The position numbers and the translations under genes were made by a program. Positions 1 through 6,809 of a stretch of 64,000 nt of DNA are shown here, one piece after another; the first letter of the stretch is position 1, and the number at the start of each line of letters is the position of its first letter. Origin of the DNA: Escherichia coli (lineage in GTDB: Bacteria > Pseudomonadota > Gammaproteobacteria > Enterobacterales > Enterobacteriaceae); assembly GCF_046105845.1 (NCBI RefSeq), contig NZ_CP151004.1; one strand, given 5' to 3'. The notes under the pieces are model-generated. The model had not been told where the DNA came from. It did no database searches and saw only the letters and a program-made list of their open reading frames with translations.

Positions 1-232
1 CGTTACCGCGACGTCTTGCCGGGTAAAAACGGCCTGCGGAGAAGAACGCTGCGCCAATCGGGTAGCCGCGTCCGGGGTGTAAATCTGGCATCCCTACTAC
101 GCGCTGCATGTTGGGTAAATTTGCCGTGGTGTGTAATTGTTGGATCGCTAAACTCTCGATCCACAGGTCATCAGATGCGATGGTAAATACCGCATAGGAT
201 AAGGGACGAATATATTTGCCCATGTATCATTC
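1..232 (-). CDS. 5' end of an RtcB-family RNA ligase-like gene, partial (continues beyond window start)
   Basis: Reverse-strand ATG at 232 gives MGKYIRPLSY...VVGMPDLHPGRGYPIGAAF, resembling the conserved N-terminal motif of RtcB; in E. coli the rtcB2/prfH locus lies next to yafP. Not in the ORF track because it is cut by the window edge. Confidence 0.4.
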
Positions 233-467
233 CATTTATACTCGTCATACTTCAAGTTGCATGTACTGCGACTCGAATTATTTAGAGTATATAAATATAA
301 AAATCAGGAAATGGCAGACGAATCCAGGGCAAGAAAAAAGAATTAATCCTGGAAAGGTCTGCAAAGAGTCATTGATAAAGGATTTGTCATGATTTACCTC
401 CTTGCAGTTTGTGGAATAAGAAAACGCGCACATACCAGGCGGGTGTTATTTTCATTGCAAGCTGAAT

Positions 468-920
468 TTAATGTTGCGGTTTATATCGCATAGAAAAATT
501 AGTAAACCACGCTCCCCTGCATTCAACGCGCTGCTGCTTAACTGTCTGAAAACCATAACGTTCAAAAAAGGGTTTTGCGGTTATGCTGGCGTCCACCGTA
601 AGTTCGGATTCAGACTTAATCAAAGGTTTTAACAAAGCGCTGGCAACCCCACAGCGGGTGTATTCAGGGTCAACAAATAACATATCGATATAGTGTTCAA
701 TGCGGGAAATAAAACCAACCGATTGTGCATTAATGATCGCAACCCACACTTGTGATTTCGCGAATTTCTCCTTCCAGCGAGATTCGTCAATCTGCGCCCA
801 GGCGGCAATTTGCTGCGGAGAATAGTGCTGACTGGCAGTCATCGTAACCGCTCGAAGGAAAATAGCGCATAGTTGCTGAAAATCGCCAGGCTGATAGTTT
901 CTTATTTGTATGTTATTCAT
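468..920 (-). CDS. yafP: GNAT-family N-acetyltransferase YafP
   Basis: 150 aa ORF; last gene of the dinB-yafN-yafO-yafP arrangement; acetyltransferase-like sequence. Confidence 0.85.
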   Translation of the reverse strand: MNNIQIRNYQPGDFQQLCAIFLRAVTMTASQHYSPQQIAAWAQIDESRWKEKFAKSQVWVAIINAQSVGFISRIEHYIDMLFVDPEYTRCGVASALLKPLIKSESELTVDASITAKPFFERYGFQTVKQQRVECRGAWFTNFSMRYKPQH

Positions 921-929
921 AATATAAAT

Positions 930-1328
930 TCAAAAACGCATGCGAAACGCTTCTGCCATTTTTCCAATTTTATGCATTTGGTTGTTATCTCGAGCCAGTT
1001 TATGAGGTTCAGGCTTCAGAATGGCAATGAGCAACCATGCTTGCTCATCAAACGCACCCTGACAATATACCAAATGCGCTTCGTCATTCGTTCTGCTGAA
1101 TTGGCGCAACTGTGGCGGAAATGGATTATTCACATTTGCCAGATGAATATGAGCAACTCGCTCAAATTTGATTAATGGCCAGGTAAACGAGTCGTCGTAG
1201 AGTGCATCGCGACCAAATATATCTGGCAAAACACCGTCACGCTTATAGGAAATAAAATCCGCCGTTAACGCATCAAGTTCCTCTGCTGTAAGTTGCAGGC
1301 GAATAAGTTTTGTTTTGAATACCCGCAT
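930..1328 (-). CDS. yafO: Type II toxin YafO (ribosome-dependent mRNA interferase)
   Basis: 132 aa ORF immediately downstream of yafN (2-bp spacing); position and size as in the dinB operon. Confidence 0.85.
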   Translation of the reverse strand: MRVFKTKLIRLQLTAEELDALTADFISYKRDGVLPDIFGRDALYDDSFTWPLIKFERVAHIHLANVNNPFPPQLRQFSRTNDEAHLVYCQGAFDEQAWLLIAILKPEPHKLARDNNQMHKIGKMAEAFRMRF

Positions 1329-1330
1329 CC

Positions 1331-1624
1331 TTATTCCTTAAAGTCATTGAAATCATCATCCGTCATATCATTAAGATATTGTTCAGCGCGGCGTGTAATT
1401 TCCTCTAATCTTGCAGCACTTGGACGGAAGCGCGCCTTTATGGGCTTTTTCTCCTCTTGTTCAGCAAGCATGTCCATTAACGCTTCGAATGCGCTGGCAC
1501 TTAAGAGATATCCTGCGGGGCGATTATTAGAAAGAACCGCAACCGGTTGATCAATAAAGTATTTAGCTGGGTTTTTACGTAACTCAGTAATATTGACCGA
1601 TTTTTCAGCGAGAATTCGATGCAT
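1331..1624 (-). CDS. yafN: Type II antitoxin YafN (Phd/YefM-like)
   Basis: 97 aa ORF starting MHRILAEKSVNITELRKNPAKYF; antitoxin-before-toxin order with yafO. Confidence 0.85.
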   Translation of the reverse strand: MHRILAEKSVNITELRKNPAKYFIDQPVAVLSNNRPAGYLLSASAFEALMDMLAEQEEKKPIKARFRPSAARLEEITRRAEQYLNDMTDDDFNDFKE

Positions 1625-1675
1625 ACAGTGATCCCCTCATAATAATGCACACCAGAATAGACATAATAGTATACA

Positions 1676-2731
1676 TCATAATCCCAGCACCAGTTGTCTT
1701 TCCATTTGCGGGTCAAGTAACGTCACATGCAGCCCCACCAGACGCACACCGCGCCCGCCACGGCGTTCATCCCAGGTTTTACGCGCAGTGGCGATCAAGT
1801 CAGCTTTATTCAGCCGTGGCCAGACGTGCTCCTGAGTAGTTTGCTGAAAATCATCAAACTTTAATTTCACCCCCTGGCGAGCAATCAGTAAATCAGGTTT
1901 AACCTTTGCCAGGCGGCGTTCAAGTTCCGGGTACAGCCGCTCGATAATCGCTTCACATTCAGACCAGTGATGAATATCTTCCGCCATCGTGCGTTCCACG
2001 CCGACGGATTTTCGCAACCGTTCGCTGTTAACGTCGCGCTCGTCAATCCCCTGACTACGCTCCCACAAAATGCGGCCAAATTTGCCAAAACGTTTGAGCA
2101 GAGTCACCAGATCACACTTTTGCACATCACCGCAGGTCCGCAGCCCCATCGCTTCCAGTTTTGCCGCCGAAACTTTGCCGACGCCGGGAATTTTTGCCAG
2201 CGGTAAGGTTTGCAGAAATGCCGGAACTTCTGCCGGAGTAATCACAAACTGACCGTTGGGTTTATTCATGTCGGAAGCAATTTTGGCGAGAAACTTTACC
2301 GGCGCAACGCCCGCAGATGCCGTCAGTTGCAGCTCGTTAAAGATCGTCTGACGGATTTCCTGGGCGATGAGGGTCGCGGAGCCGTGGCAATGCACACTAT
2401 CGGTGACGTCGAGATAGGCTTCATCCAGTGATAACGGTTCAATGCGCGAGGTGAAGCGCGAGAAAATTTCGCGGATATGATTTGAGGCTTCTTTGTAGGC
2501 GTCAAAGCGCCCTGGAAGCAGCGTGAGATGTGGGCATAATTTGAGTGCCATCCCTGTCGGCATAGCGCTACGTACGCCAAATTTACGCGCGGGATAATTG
2601 GCGGTGCTGATCACCCCCCGACGTTCGCGGCTGCCGCCAATAGCAATAGGGATATCGCGCAGGGCGGGATTGTCGCGCATCTCCACCGCTGCGAAAAAGC
2701 AGTCCATATCCACATGAATGATTTTACGCAT
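1676..2731 (-). CDS. dinB: DNA polymerase IV (Y-family translesion polymerase)
   Basis: 351 aa ORF starting [33 protein letters not shown], the DinB N-terminus. Confidence 0.95.
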
Positions 2732-2745
2732 TGCTCACCTCTCAA

Positions 2746-2765
2746 CACTGGTAAAGTATACAGTG
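2746..2765 (-). promoter_or_regulatory. LexA (SOS) box of the dinB promoter
   Basis: Plus strand cactggtaaagtatacagtg; reverse complement CACTGTATACTTTACCAGTG fits the CTGT-N8-ACAG LexA consensus, about 15 bp upstream of the dinB start. Confidence 0.8.
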
Positions 2766-2801
2766 ATTTCAGGGTTTGAGAAATGCGTAAAGATTCAGCA
2801 T

Positions 2802-3500
2802 CTAGCGCGTTCGCTGCGAATGCACCTGCTGCTTATCCAGCTTTTGCACCAGCGGCTGCACCACTTTATCCCCATGCTGACCAAAGTATTGATACAGCGT
2901 ATCGGACGCACTTTTGGTCAGCACCATAATCTCAATGCGTCGGTTGCCCGCGCTTTGCGGATTTTTCGCGTCCAGCAGCATCTGGTCCGCCATCGCGCTC
3001 ACCTGCATCACTTTATCTTCCGGCATTCCGGCCTCTTCCAGCACCCGACGAGCCGAAAGCGCGCGATCGCCCGAAAGGTTCCAGTTGTTGTAGATATTGT
3101 TTTTGTAGGCCATCGCATCGGTATGCCCGGTAATAATAATTTTGTTATCGAGCGAGTCGAACACTGGCGCGAGCTCCACCAGCAAAGTTTTAAAGAACGG
3201 CATAATCTGTGCGCTGCCGCGTTCAAACATATTGCGGTTCTGGTCATCTTTAATCAGCACGCGCAGTCCCTGGGGAACAATCTCCATCTCCAGATTCGCT
3301 TCCATATGTGCATCACGGGCAATGGTGTTGATACTGGTCGCCAGCTCGCCAAGCTCAGTAGCGGATTTCTTCTTCAGCAGCGCCGTTTTCTCATTGACGT
3401 CACGCGCTTTTTTCTCCGTCTCTTCCGGCACCGCCACGGTGGCAGGTTTTGGCGGATGAGACGGGCTGATTTTATTTAACGGCGACAACCCGCCGCCATT
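2802..3500 (-). pseudogene. lafU: lafU remnant (MotB-like lateral-flagellar motor protein, C-terminal OmpA-like part only)
   Basis: ORF 2802..3692 has an OmpA/MotB C-terminal domain (NWNLSGDRALSARRVLEEAG...NRRIEI) but no N-terminal transmembrane helix; its first ~65 codons are antisense to lfhA, so the real 5' part is missing. Confidence 0.7.
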
Positions 3501-5271
3501 GAAAATCGACTGCCCGTGCAGCGCGGCGATAATGCTTTCACGCTCGGATTTACTGACGCTGTTGACAATCAACTTTATCGTCGTCACCAAAGGGGCCGAG
3601 CGTATTTCCGAGGTTTCTGCCCGCTTTACCTTAGACGCGATGCCCGGTAAACAGATGGCGATTGACGCCGATCTTAACGCTGGGTTGATCAACCAGGCGC
3701 AGGCGCAAACCCGGCGTAAAGATGTTGCCAGCGAGGCCGATTTCTACGGCGCGATGGACGGGGCATCGAAGTTTGTGCGCGGGGACGCCATCGCCGGGAT
3801 GATGATTCTGGCGATCAACCTGATCGGCGGCGTCTGTATCGGCATCTTCAAATACAACCTGAGCGCCGACGCCGCCTTCCAGCAGTATGTGCTGATGACC
3901 ATCGGCGACGGGCTGGTGGCGCAGATCCCGTCCCTGCTGCTCTCCACCGCGGCGGCAATTATCGTCACCCGCGTCAGCGACAATGGCGATATCGCCCATG
4001 ACGTGCGCCACCAGCTGCTGGCAAGCCCGTCGGTGCTCTACACCGCCACCGGGATCATGTTTGTGCTGGCGGTGGTGCCGGGGATGCCGCATCTGCCATT
4101 TTTGCTGTTCAGCGCCCTGCTGGGTTTTACCGGCTGGCGGATGAGCAAACGCCCGCAGGCGGCGGAGGCGGAGGAGAAAAGCCTCGAAACGCTGACCCGC
4201 ACCATCACCGAAACCAGCGAGCAACAGGTCAGTTGGGAGACTATTCCGCTGATCGAACCCATCAGTTTAAGCCTCGGTTACAAACTGGTGGCGCTGGTCG
4301 ATAAAGCGCAGGGTAACCCACTCACCCAGCGTATTCGCGGCGTGCGGCAAGTGATATCCGACGGCAACGGCGTGCTGCTGCCGGAGATCCGTATTCGGGA
4401 AAACTTCCGCCTCAAGCCCAACCAGTACGCCATATTCATCAACGGCATTAAGGCCGATGAAGCGGATATTCCGGCGGATAAACTGATGGCCCTGCCCTCC
4501 AGCGAAACCTACGGCGAGATTGACGGCGTGCTGGGGAACGACCCGGCGTACGGGATGCCGGTCACCTGGATTCAGCCTGCGCAGAAAGCGAAGGCGCTGA
4601 ATATGGGGTATCAGGTGATCGACAGCGCCAGCGTGATTGCCACCCATGTGAACAAGATTGTCCGCAGCTATATTCCTGATTTGTTTAACTATGACGATAT
4701 TACTCAGCTGCATAACCGTTTGTCGTCGATGGCACCGCGACTGGCGGAAGATTTGAGCGCGGCGCTCAATTACAGCCAGTTGCTGAAAGTGTACCGGGCG
4801 CTACTGACTGAAGGCGTTTCCCTACGCGATATCGTCACCATCGCCACCGTGCTGGTCGCCAGTAGCACAGTGACCAAAGATCATATTCTGCTGGCAGCTG
4901 ATGTGCGCCTGGCGCTACGGCGCAGCATTACCCATCCGCTCGTTCGCAAGCAGGAGCTGACGGTGTATACGCTGAATAATGAGCTGGAAAATCTGCTGAC
5001 CAACGTGGTGAATCAGGCGCAACAGGCCGGCAAAGTGATGCTCGACAGCGTGCCGGTGGACCCGAATATGCTTAACCAGTTCCAGAGTACGATGCCACAG
5101 GTGAAGGAGCAGATGAAAGCGGCGGGGAAAGACCCGGTGCTGCTGGTGCCGCCGCAACTGCGTCCATTGCTGGCGCGCTATGCAAGGTTGTTTGCGCCGG
5201 GGCTGCATGTGCTGTCGTATAACGAAGTGCCGGATGAGCTGGAGTTGAAGATTATGGGGGCGCTGAGTTGA
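3499..5271 (+). pseudogene. lfhA: lfhA remnant (FlhA-family export gate protein lacking the N-terminal membrane region)
   Basis: ORF begins inside the FlhA signature (ITKGAERISEVSARFTLDAMPGKQMAIDADLNAG) without the ~130 aa transmembrane N-terminus; C-terminus looks complete. It converges on and overlaps lafU. Confidence 0.75.
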
Positions 5272-5307
5272 TGCCTTTTAAGAAACACAATACGATGACA
5301 TCAATTT

Positions 5308-5703
5308 ATGACGTCAGGGATTGATAAGATGATGAAAACGCGTTTATTAATATCTCAAGCATCGAACATTATCACCATTAAAGGTCAACCAGCCGCAGTG
5401 ACATTTGAAGCCGATATCAACGCATTTCGCGGCAAATTTCTCAATGTAAATGGTTATTGCGACTTTGTAGCGACAAGCATTGAGGCGTTATACCGGGAAG
5501 GTGAAAGTGCGCTGGATGAGTGGATGGCGGATTGTGAAGAGGACGGCATTGCCCCTTTTCGTGAAGAAGAGCAAAAACGCCTGACGCTTCGTGTTCCTCA
5601 TCACATCGATTCACGACTGACCATTGTCGCCAGACAACATTCCATTTCAAAAAATCAGCTCATTGTTGATGTATTAGAACGTGAGTTTTCATCCCAGATG
5701 TAA
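5308..5703 (+). CDS. HicB-like antitoxin-family protein with C-terminal ribbon-helix-helix (no HicA partner seen)
   Basis: 131 aa ORF; C-terminus ...RLTIVARQHSISKNQLIVDVLEREF looks RHH-like; likely start at ATG 5329/5332 after an aggga Shine-Dalgarno. Family assignment is from memory. Confidence 0.5.
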   Translation: MTSGIDKMMKTRLLISQASNIITIKGQPAAVTFEADINAFRGKFLNVNGYCDFVATSIEALYREGESALDEWMADCEEDGIAPFREEEQKRLTLRVPHHIDSRLTIVARQHSISKNQLIVDVLEREFSSQM

Positions 5704-5709
5704 ACAGGT

Positions 5710-5738
5710 CGGATGCCGTGTGGCATCCGATTTTTTTC
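5710..5738 (+). terminator. Rho-independent terminator after the HicB-like gene
   Basis: cggatgcc-gtgt-ggcatccg hairpin followed by a T-run (attttttt). Confidence 0.55.
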
Positions 5739-5759
5739 CTGATCGTCAGTATTCTCCGT

Positions 5760-6518
5760 TTACAAAATCGTCTCTTCCGTCAAAATCCTGCGCGCGCCTA
5801 AAAAATGATCCTGCCAGAAAGGCTCAGCTAACCGACTTACCCGAATGGTTTCCCCCGTGCGCGGCGACTCGATAAACTGACCGTCTCCCAGATACACGCC
5901 CATATGATCGGCTATCTCGCGGCTGTGGATATGGAAAAACAGCAAATCTCCCCGGCGCAGGTCGTTGTTCGCCACAATCGTTGCCCGATGGTAGTGATAC
6001 ATCTCATTAGCCGTACGCGGGAGCTTCGCCTCGAGGATCTTGTTGTAGGCATAAAAAACCAACCCGCTACAGTCGAAGCCTTGATCAGGCCGCGTGCCGC
6101 CCCAGACGTAAGGTTTGCCAAGCTGCTGCTCCAGGCGGTGAATCGCCACTTCGGTGATGTTGTGTAGATGGTCGCTGCTTAAGAAATGGTTGTTCTCCGC
6201 CAGCGCCTGCCAGCGTCTGTCACTCGCCTTGAGCGGCGCAGGAAACCATTCTGGATGCTGTTTTATCTGTTCGCGGTTGTGCTGGCGCAGCGCCTTTCTG
6301 CTTTCGGCATTGCCTTCCACAATGTAGCTGGCCTGCTTTTTCAGATGGGTTTGGTACTGTTTTAATAAACGCGCCCGGTTTTGCATCCGCTGGCGGGCGG
6401 CGTAGCTGAAAGAGATATGTGATGTGGTGGCGCTGGCGAGTAAAGGGAGCAAAACGCATAACGAAAACACGCCTGGATGCAGAAATCTGCCGTGAAAGAA
6501 CGAAGACATGAAGGACAT
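5760..6518 (-). CDS. yafL: NlpC/P60-family lipoprotein peptidase YafL
   Basis: 252 aa ORF; signal peptide plus NlpC/P60 catalytic region (YVWGGTRPDQGFDCSGLVFYAY). Confidence 0.85.
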   Translation of the reverse strand: MSFMSSFFHGRFLHPGVFSLCVLLPLLASATTSHISFSYAARQRMQNRARLLKQYQTHLKKQASYIVEGNAESRKALRQHNREQIKQHPEWFPAPLKASDRRWQALAENNHFLSSDHLHNITEVAIHRLEQQLGKPYVWGGTRPDQGFDCSGLVFYAYNKILEAKLPRTANEMYHYHRATIVANNDLRRGDLLFFHIHSREIADHMGVYLGDGQFIESPRTGETIRVSRLAEPFWQDHFLGARRILTEETIL

Positions 6519-6809
6519 AAACTAGCTGAATGAAGGAGAGAATTTTAAAAGGTTGGGGGAGTAAACGGGATTATTAATTGCTTATTTGCATATTAGTTAC
6601 GAGGTTTCATAATCTTAGGAAATAAGTGATACATGCGCTTTTCGGACTAATGAAAACTGCCCCTGTGCTAAATTTGTAAACCCTGCGCCGACAGGCTTGC
6701 GTAAAACTCTTTTGGTGATAATGTGAGCCTTCCAAATCCAGACTATTCCGATTTGGGATCCATTTTGCCGTCCTGGCGTGTGTAACCGTTTTATCAAGGA
6801 ATAAGCAGT

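What the first reader, a model, noticed from the sequence alone, without database searches (positions are those of the whole stretch)
2802..5271. Flag-2 lateral-flagella deletion scar: convergent, overlapping lafU and lfhA remnants
An FlhA-family gene lacking its N-terminal membrane region and a MotB-family gene lacking its N-terminus converge and overlap by about 190 bp. This is the junction expected if a lateral-flagellar cluster once lay between them and was deleted, as described for K-12. The strain therefore carries the deletion, not an intact Flag-2 locus.
Basis: partly seen in the sequence, partly recalled or inferred. Interest (0 to 1): 0.35.

Follow-up and report, generated by a model that had tools for sequence, protein, structure and literature searches.

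The report
Flag-2 lateral-flagella deletion scar, lafU'/lfhA'
This is the well-known scar left in most E. coli when the 36-kb lateral-flagella (Flag-2) gene cluster was lost, but the same codon-exact scar also occurs in several other genera, and its gene fragments evolve like working genes, which a single old deletion does not explain.

Summary
Window 2802-5271 holds the K-12-type Flag-2 deletion allele between dinB and yafL. It consists of a 5'-truncated lafU (MotB-like, codons 53-307, minus strand, 2802-3569) and a 5'-truncated lfhA (FlhA-like, codons 131-697, plus strand, 3568-5271).

Three details are wrong:
- The genes are divergent (head-to-head), not convergent.
- They abut rather than overlap. 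The 194-bp "overlap" (3499-3692) is ORF run-on into the antisense of the other fragment.
- The junction is at 3568-3570, a 3-bp ATC microhomology inside an 11/15 imperfect repeat, not at 3480-3520.

About 36.0 kb is missing relative to E. coli 042. The same junction is contiguous in 4085 of 5426 complete E. coli genomes. This is already known (Ren et al. 2005; De Maayer et al. 2020).

Three results were unexpected:
- The codon-exact junction recurs in E. albertii, Citrobacter, Kluyvera, Atlantibacter, and Siccibacter- and Cedecea-like lineages. Where a conspecific intact allele was available, the scar is near-identical to it.
- Twenty E. coli scars carry 335 synonymous, 47 nonsynonymous and 1 nonsense change, and no indels.
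- Linkage disequilibrium collapses exactly at the junction.

A passively inherited dead scar does not fit these results. Recurrent precise excision, or an ancient maintained allele, remains open.

The parts
2802..3569 (-). lafU remnant (LafU/MotB-like). Codons 53-307 plus the stop codon at 2802-2804. The cytoplasmic N-terminus and the single transmembrane helix (codons 1-52) are missing.
   Evidence: Blastn to 042 lafU. Pfam finds OmpA only. Full-length LafU proteins carry PF13677 MotB_plug plus PF00691, while truncated ones carry only PF00691. The hydrophobic segment at residues 35-53 ends at the break.
3568..5271 (+). lfhA remnant (LfhA/FlhA-like). Codons 131-697 plus the stop codon. Codons 1-130 are missing. 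The conserved FHIPEP cytoplasmic loop, the later transmembrane segments and the cytoplasmic domain are retained.
   Evidence: Blastn to 042 lfhA. Pfam FHIPEP matches profile positions 99-656 of 657. The break lies inside the hydrophobic segment at residues 118-136.
3568..3570 (.). Deletion junction. The 3-bp microhomology ATC is shared by both parental sites. The antisense Ile53 codon of lafU (AAT, 3567-3569) overlaps the Ile131 codon of lfhA (ATC).
   Evidence: Three-way alignment of the window against both 042 sides. The same holds for three intact strains.
3559..3573 (.). Footprint of the imperfect direct repeat at the two breakpoints. The lafU side reads CTGTTGACAATCCAC and the lfhA side reads CTGATGATCATCAAC (11 of 15 match).
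3571..3692 (-). Run-on of the lafU-frame ORF into the antisense strand of lfhA. This stretch is not lafU-derived. RefSeq annotation starts 'LafU' at the GVG... GTG codon at 3587.
3499..3567 (+). Run-on of the lfhA-frame ORF into the antisense strand of lafU. This stretch is not lfhA-derived.
1676..2731 (-). dinB, the conserved left anchor of the Flag-2 locus.
5760..6518 (-). yafL (NlpC/P60), the conserved right anchor of the Flag-2 locus.

Best explanation
The region is the canonical Flag-2 (lateral flagella) deletion allele.

Shown:
- A single join between the Ile53 codon of lafU and the Ile131 codon of lfhA, at an ATC microhomology, removed about 36 kb. The lost DNA held 5' lafU, the other flagellar genes of the cluster and 5' lfhA.
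- Two head-to-head, 5'-truncated outer genes remain between dinB and yafL.

Inferred:
- The strain cannot build lateral flagella from this locus. LafU' has lost its membrane anchor, and LfhA' has lost TM1-3 and most of TM4.
- This junction is not a private, passively decaying relic. The same codon-exact junction sits in at least 8-10 enterobacterial lineages.
- The fragments have spent roughly 97% or more of their history under protein-level constraint, and the two sides of the junction are genetically unlinked in E. coli.
- The allele therefore must be one of two things. Either it is re-created repeatedly in place from intact clusters, or it is an old allele kept open by selection and by recombination with intact alleles.

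I put these two origin models at roughly equal odds, about 0.4 and 0.3. The classic single neutral scar model is at about 0.1.
For: Identity and anatomy:
- Pfam domains.
- Alignment to intact 042 and exact breakpoints.
- The same junction in K-12, O157:H7, B2 strains and others.
- A 120-bp junction probe is contiguous in 4085 of 5426 complete genomes.
- Literature: PMC6993521, PMC3032704 and PMC11420993.

Constraint on the fragments:
- Pairwise dN/dS is 0.01-0.05 in both fragments, the same as in dinB.
- Twenty scars show 335 synonymous, 47 nonsynonymous and 1 stop change, with 0 indels. The mutational expectation is 24% synonymous, 73% nonsynonymous and 2.8% stop.

Scar and intact alleles match within species:
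- K-12 against MARGA_4: 4 mismatches in 7.6 kb and none inside the fragments.
- Window lafU' against 042: 768 of 769 identical.
- Strain 205 against 613: 2337 of 2337 identical.
- Atlantibacter: 98.9%. Kluyvera: 98.75%.

Linkage collapse at the junction:
- Four-gamete violations reach 95% across the junction, against a 40% background.

Cross-genus junctions.
Against: - No mechanism for a precise recurrent excision is evident. There are only 2-3 bp of exact homology.
- No recombinase gene is annotated in the cluster.
- The retained lafU-side nucleotides are not conserved in the deep lineages.
- The in-silico scar of 042 has no perfect natural counterpart; the best match is 99.0%.
- Only 20 scar genomes and 3 intact E. 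coli genomes were analysed at nucleotide level.
- SNP pairs in the LD test are not independent.
Confidence: 0.9

Rival explanations
1. Recurrent precise excision. The whole Flag-2 interior is excised again and again, in place, at the same two codons (lafU 52|53 and lfhA 130|131). The process would be conserved, either programmed or a strong hot spot. Scars would be evolutionarily young derivatives of co-occurring intact clusters.
For: - The junction is the same in two deep Flag-2 clades and in seven or more genera.
- In every species where both alleles were seen, the scar is 98-100% identical to the conspecific intact allele right up to the junction.
- Both ORFs are open in all 8 non-Escherichia scars.
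- There are no indels and only one stop in 20 E. coli scars.
- LD collapses exactly at the junction, as expected if the two sides were 36 kb apart until recently.
- The literature notes that truncated pairs occur mainly in taxa that also hold complete loci (PMC6993521).
Against: - No enzyme or repeat can be named.
- Exact homology is only AT or ATC.
- The 11/15 repeat and the 9-bp hairpin at the E. coli lafU site are not conserved in Kluyvera or in the L099/L100 lineages.
- The junction falls at the same codon even where the flanking retained bases differ. A DNA-level mechanism would then have to read only the deleted-side ends.
Confidence: 0.4
2. Ancient allele by descent. One illegitimate deletion in an early enterobacterial ancestor produced the junction. 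Both alleles have persisted, or been re-seeded by gene transfer. Homologous recombination with intact alleles homogenises the shared arms. The fragments stay open because LfhA' and/or LafU' are themselves useful.
For: - Codon-exact identity of a junction with almost no homology is most simply homology by descent, especially where nearby bases have diverged.
- The polymorphism pattern looks like that of a working gene, including isolated singletons at 14 synonymous, 6 nonsynonymous and 1 stop.
- A fhiA (lfhA') transcript is detectable in EDL933 (PMC6863780).
- LfhA' would keep a topologically coherent set of parts: the loop, the later TM segments and the C-domain.
- The retained part of lfhA is 1.6-2.6 times more diverse at third codon positions than the deleted part among intact E. 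coli strains, consistent with a larger shared gene pool.
Against: - Both alleles would have to survive in many genera, and in two Flag-2 clades whose LafU proteins are only 44% identical.
- No scar-specific substitution is seen next to the junction in any species.
- LafU' has no signal peptide or membrane anchor.
- E2348/69 carries a stop, and the E. albertii type strain carries a frameshift and 6 gap openings.
- The mbhA/lafU locus is routinely used as a neutral integration site.
Confidence: 0.3
3. Textbook view. A single deletion in an Escherichia ancestor left a neutral pseudogene scar that is simply inherited and slowly decaying.
For: - K-12 annotation as pseudogenes.
- One junction dominates E. 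coli.
- Occasional decay is seen: a stop in E2348/69 and a frameshift in E. albertii.
Against: - With 335 synonymous changes as the yardstick, neutrality predicts about 1000 nonsynonymous changes and about 39 stops. The observed counts are 47 and 1.
- Taking indels at about one tenth of the substitution rate (my own knowledge of mutation-accumulation data), tens to more than 100 indels are expected, and none was seen.
- The same junction occurs outside Escherichia on lineage-specific sequence.
- The two sides of the junction are unlinked.
Confidence: 0.08
4. First reader's geometry. Two convergent genes genuinely overlap by about 190 bp at their ends.
For: The mechanical ORFs 2802-3692 (-) and 3499-5271 (+) overlap by 194 bp.
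Against: - The overlapping stretches have no homology to lafU or lfhA. Homology switches within 3568-3570.
- The stop codons are at the outer ends (2802 and 5271), so the genes diverge.
- The run-on differs between genera: a stop lies 9 codons upstream in L094, and start positions vary.
Confidence: 0.02

Closest known systems
E. coli K-12 lfhA (b0229, formerly fhiA) / lafU (b0230, formerly mbhA) pseudogene pair, the Flag-2 scar of Ren et al. 2005 (J Bacteriol 187:1430). That paper is not held in the library and is cited through PMC6993521, PMC3032704 and my own knowledge.
   Same: - The junction nucleotides are the same.
- The fragments retained are the same: 769 nt of lafU and 1704 nt of lfhA.
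- The head-to-head orientation is the same.
- The position next to dinB is the same.
   Different: - The window is 95.5% identical to K-12 here. Its lafU' haplotype is that of intact strain 042 (768 of 769 identical).
- The neighbourhood differs. There is no rayT and no dinJ-yafQ, and an orphan hicB lies next to lfhA'.
Intact Flag-2 cluster of enteroaggregative E. coli 042 (NC_017626.1, 284.7-323.2 kb).
   Same: The outer genes and the chromosomal site are the same. The retained parts are 96.5-99.9% identical.
   Different: The window lacks 36,008 bp, including lfhB through lafT and the 5' ends of lfhA and lafU.
Truncated lfhA/lafU pairs reported across Enterobacterales (De Maayer et al. 2020, PMC6993521) and in E. 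albertii (PMC11420993).
   Same: The kind of allele is the same. I show that the junction is codon-exact the same in E. albertii, Citrobacter, Kluyvera, Atlantibacter, and Siccibacter-, Cedecea- and H16N7-like lineages.
   Different: In the passages I read, those papers report presence of the truncated pair and a deletion 'within the reading frames'. They do not state that the breakpoints are identical between genera. They also do not report the selection or LD signatures.
Precise excision of elements bounded by inverted repeats and short direct repeats (for example RecA-independent Tn10/Tn5 precise excision), and integrase-mediated island excision.
   Same: - The outcome is a clean, reproducible junction with a very short direct repeat.
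- The excised ends form an imperfect inverted repeat: 19 of 27 nt match between the TM-coding ends of lafU and lfhA.
   Different: - The inverted repeat is short and imperfect.
- No integrase or transposase is annotated in the cluster.
- The analogy rests on recall only and was not tested.

Membership tests
Flag-2 deletion scar (K-12-type lfhA'/lafU') | A lafU fragment corresponding to the 3' part of intact lafU, next to dinB. | tested here: met
   Window 17-3573 aligns to 042 dinB-lafU at 96.5%. The fragment covers codons 53-307.
Flag-2 deletion scar (K-12-type lfhA'/lafU') | An lfhA fragment corresponding to the 3' part of intact lfhA, on the yafL side. | tested here: met
   Window 3559-5278 aligns to 042 lfhA at 96.5%. 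The fragment covers codons 131-697.
Flag-2 deletion scar (K-12-type lfhA'/lafU') | The same junction as K-12 and other scar strains. | tested here: met
   In K-12 the two fragments meet with the same 3-nt overlap. Nineteen other scar genomes align without gaps across the junction. The 120-bp probe is contiguous in 4085 genomes.
Flag-2 deletion scar (K-12-type lfhA'/lafU') | Absence of the interior flagellar genes. | tested here: met
   There are no blastn hits of the 36-kb 042 interior anywhere in the 64-kb window. The rest of the genome is not available.
FlhA / FHIPEP export-gate family (functional member) | A full-length protein with the N-terminal transmembrane segments. | tested here: not met
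   The Pfam match starts at profile position 99. Codons 1-130 are absent. The break lies inside the hydrophobic segment at residues 118-136.
MotB / LafU stator family (functional member) | An N-terminal transmembrane helix with the conserved Asp, plus the plug (PF13677), plus the OmpA-like domain. | tested here: not met
   Only PF00691 is found. Residues 1-52, including the FADFTLAMMALFMTLW helix, are missing.
Site-specific (integrase/recombinase) excision system | A recombinase gene, and conserved att-like half-sites on both sides of each crossover. | tested here: not met
   No recombinase is annotated in three intact clusters. The retained lafU-side bases are not conserved across lineages. 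Protein-level searches of the unannotated cluster genes were not done.
Pseudogene evolving neutrally | dN/dS near 1, with frameshifts and stops accumulating. | tested here: not met
   dN/dS is 0.01-0.05. The counts are 335 synonymous, 47 nonsynonymous and 1 stop, with 0 indels in 20 genomes.

The most novel reading that the evidence does not exclude
The 'scar' is not a one-off accident. It is the product of a conserved, precise excision of the entire 35-36 kb Flag-2 cluster that recurs independently in Escherichia, Citrobacter, Kluyvera, Atlantibacter, Cedecea and relatives. The excision always falls between lafU codons 52|53 and lfhA codons 130|131. Intact clusters would act as the long-lived source, and scar-bearing lineages would be young offshoots.
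Probability: 0.35. Interest if true: 0.8.

Novelty: already known. Interest (0 to 1): 0.45.

Why it matters
For this window, the finding only says that the strain lacks lateral flagella, like about 75% of E. coli. That is ordinary.

The wider pattern matters more. A large surface-organelle gene cluster is polymorphic within many enterobacterial species through one and the same codon-exact junction. The leftover fragments behave like constrained genes.

- If the junction is re-created by a precise excision, this would be a previously unrecognised way of switching off a costly, immunogenic organelle, and a new kind of programmed or hot-spot genome rearrangement.
- If instead it is an ancient maintained allele, it would be an unusually deep presence/absence polymorphism. 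It would also mean that lfhA and lafU of K-12 are wrongly written off as dead pseudogenes.

Either way, the locus offers a clean PCR-testable system.

Tried and rejected
- Ren et al. 2005 could not be read. Its content is cited through later papers.
- The genome-contig scan was flooded by the ubiquitous DAMPGKQM peptide and gave only 3 close relatives. Other genera were reached through the protein database instead.
- Longer repeat in some intact strains: rejected. The repeat is the same 11/15 in 042, MARGA_4 and 613.
- Conserved hairpin at the lafU breakpoint: rejected as general. It has a 9-bp stem in E. coli but is degraded in 613 and Kluyvera.
- RayT (the REP transposase next to lfhA) as the agent: rejected. 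It is absent from the window, from SCU-102 and from the loci of other genera. REP copies flank rayT, not the breakpoints.
- A Chi-driven recombination hot spot as the cause of the LD collapse: rejected. Chi lies at 3912, but LD is highest between 3650 and 3800.
- Neutral scar refreshed by ordinary recombination with intact alleles: judged quantitatively insufficient, by inference and typical indel rates.
- In-silico scar of 042: no perfect natural match, best 99.0%. That lineage therefore gives no support for recent in-place excision.
- Interior-versus-arm divergence between genera: uninformative for horizontal transfer.
- Protein-database clusters of shortened LfhA' forms: many are labelled 'partial', so they were not used as evidence of decay.
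Full report
**What is in the window**

The ORF list and flanking genes place the region in the E. coli dinB neighbourhood:
- yafP (468-920, -), yafO, yafN and dinB (1676-2731, -)
- the two fragments
- a HicB-like ORF (5308-5703, +)
- yafL (5760-6518, -), dpaA/yafK, yafJ and gmhA

The minus-strand ORF 2802-3692 matches only the OmpA-like domain. The plus-strand ORF 3499-5271 matches FHIPEP from profile position 99 onward. RefSeq annotates the same stretch in other strains as 'lafU' and as 'FlhA, incomplete, missing N-terminus'. K-12 annotates lfhA (b0229) and lafU (b0230) as pseudogenes.

**Breakpoints**

I aligned the window against the intact Flag-2 cluster of E. coli 042 (L003).
- Window 17-3573 aligns to 042 dinB-lafU.
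- Window 3559-5278 aligns to 042 lfhA.
- Both alignments are at 96.5% identity.

Base by base, the lafU side matches perfectly up to 3570 and the lfhA side matches perfectly from 3568. The crossover therefore lies in the ATC at 3568-3570. This ATC sits inside a 15-bp patch in which the two parental sites agree at 11 positions.

The fragments are:
- lafU: codons 53-307, having lost 52 codons that include its only transmembrane helix.
- lfhA: codons 131-697, having lost 130 codons. The break lies inside the hydrophobic segment at residues 118-136.

The missing DNA is 36,008 bp in 042, 35,582 bp in MARGA_4 and 35,026 bp in strain 613. No interior Flag-2 DNA is found elsewhere in the window.

- The stop codons are at the outer ends (2802 and 5271), and the truncated 5' ends meet at the junction. 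The genes are therefore divergent, as I recall the original description of fhiA-mbhA stating (own knowledge of Ren et al. 2005).
- The 194-bp 'overlap' (3499-3692) is open reading frame that continues by chance into the antisense strand of the other fragment. It has no homology to either gene. It also differs between genera: there is a stop 9 codons upstream in L094, and start positions vary.
- The junction is at 3568-3570, not 3480-3520.
- The interpretation as the K-12-type scar is correct. K-12 and 18 other scar strains align across the junction without gaps. A 120-bp junction probe is contiguous in 4085 of 5426 complete E. coli genomes. About 1170 records hold the two ends separately.
- Other structures exist but are rare, for example an IS421-associated larger deletion in strain OkiPb01676.

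The scar is established in the literature for E. coli, Shigella and E. albertii. Truncated lfhA/lafU pairs are reported in 531 of 4028 Enterobacterales genomes (PMC6993521, PMC3032704, PMC11420993).

**Unexpected result 1: the fragments do not evolve like a dead scar**

- Pairwise dN/dS among scar strains is 0.01-0.05 in both fragments, the same as in the functional neighbour dinB. dS is 0.1-0.35.
- In 20 scar genomes there are 361 segregating sites in 2470 nt and no indels.
- The changes are 335 synonymous, 47 nonsynonymous and one stop (in E2348/69).
- Random mutation of these sequences would give 24% synonymous, 73% nonsynonymous and 2.8% stop changes.
- With the synonymous changes as the yardstick, about 1000 nonsynonymous changes and about 39 stops are expected. 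If indels arise at roughly a tenth of the substitution rate (own knowledge), many indels are expected too.
- So no more than a few percent of the history of these sequences passed without protein-level constraint.
- Even isolated singletons are 14 synonymous, 6 nonsynonymous and 1 stop.

**Unexpected result 2: scar and intact alleles share haplotypes up to the junction**

- K-12 (scar) and MARGA_4 (intact) differ at 1 of 4442 nt on the lafU side and 3 of 3175 nt on the lfhA side. They differ at none of the variable sites inside the fragments.
- The window's lafU' is 768/769 identical to intact 042. Its lfhA' is identical to 042 for the first roughly 410 nt.
- Strain 205 (scar) equals strain 613 (intact) over 2337 nt on the lafU side.
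- Different scar haplotypes differ at third codon positions as close as 4-12 nt from the junction.

**Unexpected result 3: linkage collapses at the junction**

Among the 20 scars I took SNP pairs 30-200 nt apart.
- Pairs that straddle the junction violate the four-gamete test in 95% of cases (57 pairs, mean r2 0.062).
- Across 89 pseudo-junctions the mean is 40% (sd 16%), and the maximum away from the junction is 57%.
- The junction is the single extreme of the scan.

The two sides behave as if they had been far apart for most of their history.

**Unexpected result 4: the junction is codon-exact in other genera**

The antisense Ile53 codon of lafU overlaps by 'AT' with the Ile131 codon of lfhA in each of these:
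- the E. albertii type strain
- Atlantibacter subterranea
- a Siccibacter-like genome
- a lineage 99% identical to 'Enterobacteriaceae bacterium H16N7'
- a Cedecea neteri-like contig
- two unassigned lineages
- Kluyvera ascorbata, and Citrobacter species by protein signature and by DNA

LfhA identity to E. coli falls to 70% and LafU identity to 44% across these lineages. The Cedecea-type LafU belongs to a separate clade that is widespread in Enterobacter, Lelliottia and Kluyvera. The retained lafU-side bases next to the junction are not conserved (GTTGACA, GCTTAGA, ATTAATA, CCCCATA).

Both ORFs are open in all eight non-Escherichia scars. Where a conspecific intact allele was found, it is 98-99% identical to the scar:
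- Atlantibacter 98.9% nt and Kluyvera 98.75% nt
- H16N7-like 98.95% aa and Cedecea 97.7% aa

**Interpretation**

The identity of the feature is secure. Its origin is not.

A single neutral scar fits neither the constraint signature, nor the unlinked sides, nor the cross-genus distribution.

Recurrent in-place precise excision explains all four unexpected results. It lacks a mechanism, however:
- Exact homology is 2-3 bp.
- The imperfect repeat and the E. coli hairpin are not conserved.
- No recombinase is annotated.
- The only feature conserved at both ends lies on the excised side: the TM-coding ends form a 19/27 imperfect inverted repeat.

Descent from one ancient deletion explains the exact junction without any mechanism. 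It has costs of its own:
- Both alleles must have persisted across many genera and two Flag-2 clades.
- The arms must be fully homogenised up to the boundary in every species.
- Direct selection on the fragments is also needed. I judge ordinary gene flow too weak to purge disruptions, which is an inference.

Evidence on function is thin. A fhiA transcript is measurable in EDL933 (PMC6863780). Against function, LafU' lacks any export signal, some strains carry disruptions, and the locus is used as a neutral integration site.

I rate recurrent excision at about 0.4, the ancient maintained allele at about 0.3, and the classic neutral scar at about 0.1.

**Limits**

- Nucleotide-level analysis covered 20 scar genomes and 3 intact E. 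coli genomes.
- SNP pairs are not independent.
- The lineages of some contigs are inferred only from protein identity.
- The 042 in-silico scar has no perfect natural match.
- The original 2005 paper could not be read.

**Verdict**

The finding as submitted is a correct identification of a known feature, with wrong geometry. The wider behaviour of this junction deserves follow-up.

Noticed in passing
window 5272-5759: Between lfhA' and yafL the window has a 131-aa HicB-family ORF (5308-5703) but no hicA and no rayT. B2/F-type strains carry hicA-hicB here, K-12, 042 and O157 carry rayT, and SCU-102 carries neither. The window aligns to the hicAB strains only from the start of hicB onward.
   Followed up: partly
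window 6519-6809: The dinJ-yafQ toxin-antitoxin pair that K-12 has between yafL and dpaA (yafK) is absent. 042 and SCU-102 also lack it.
   Followed up: partly
window 3547-3630, against L015 3701-3784: The E. albertii type strain is identical to the window over 84 nt centred on the junction, although the loci are 9.7% diverged overall. This could reflect very short-patch exchange of the junction between species, or unusual local constraint.
   Followed up: partly
window 3912-3919 (+): A Chi site (GCTGGTGG) lies 340 nt inside lfhA'. It does not coincide with the LD minimum.
   Followed up: yes
window 1676-2731 (dinB) and the whole locus: Synonymous divergence among E. coli strains is unusually high in this neighbourhood (dS 0.07-0.35 in dinB as well as in the fragments). 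LD is low even within 50 nt (mean r2 about 0.2). The region is strongly mosaic.
   Followed up: partly
L003, L010, L011 (intact lfhA): Among intact E. coli strains, the part of lfhA that scars retain is 1.6-2.6 times more diverged at third codon positions than the first 390 nt, which scars lack.
   Followed up: no
LafU residues 44-63 and LfhA residues 122-149 (L003): The two breakpoint regions resemble each other at protein level (LFMTLWIVN..SVSKSERE against VFIILMIINFIVVTKGAER). The ends of the excised DNA therefore form an imperfect inverted repeat, and the scar junction forms a small palindrome (GTTGA-CAA-TCAAC).
   Followed up: partly
L120 (E. coli OkiPb01676) and L119 (MS8320): These are alternative structures at the locus. 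In OkiPb01676 an IS421 copy sits next to only the last 142 nt of lfhA, with ecpA adjacent. MS8320 has an intact lafU end but no matching lfhA junction hit.
   Followed up: partly
L003 20471-20904 and L011 32316-34759: Intact clusters themselves carry inactivating lesions: the known lfgC (flgC) frameshift in 042 and a frameshifted glycosyltransferase in strain 613.
   Followed up: no
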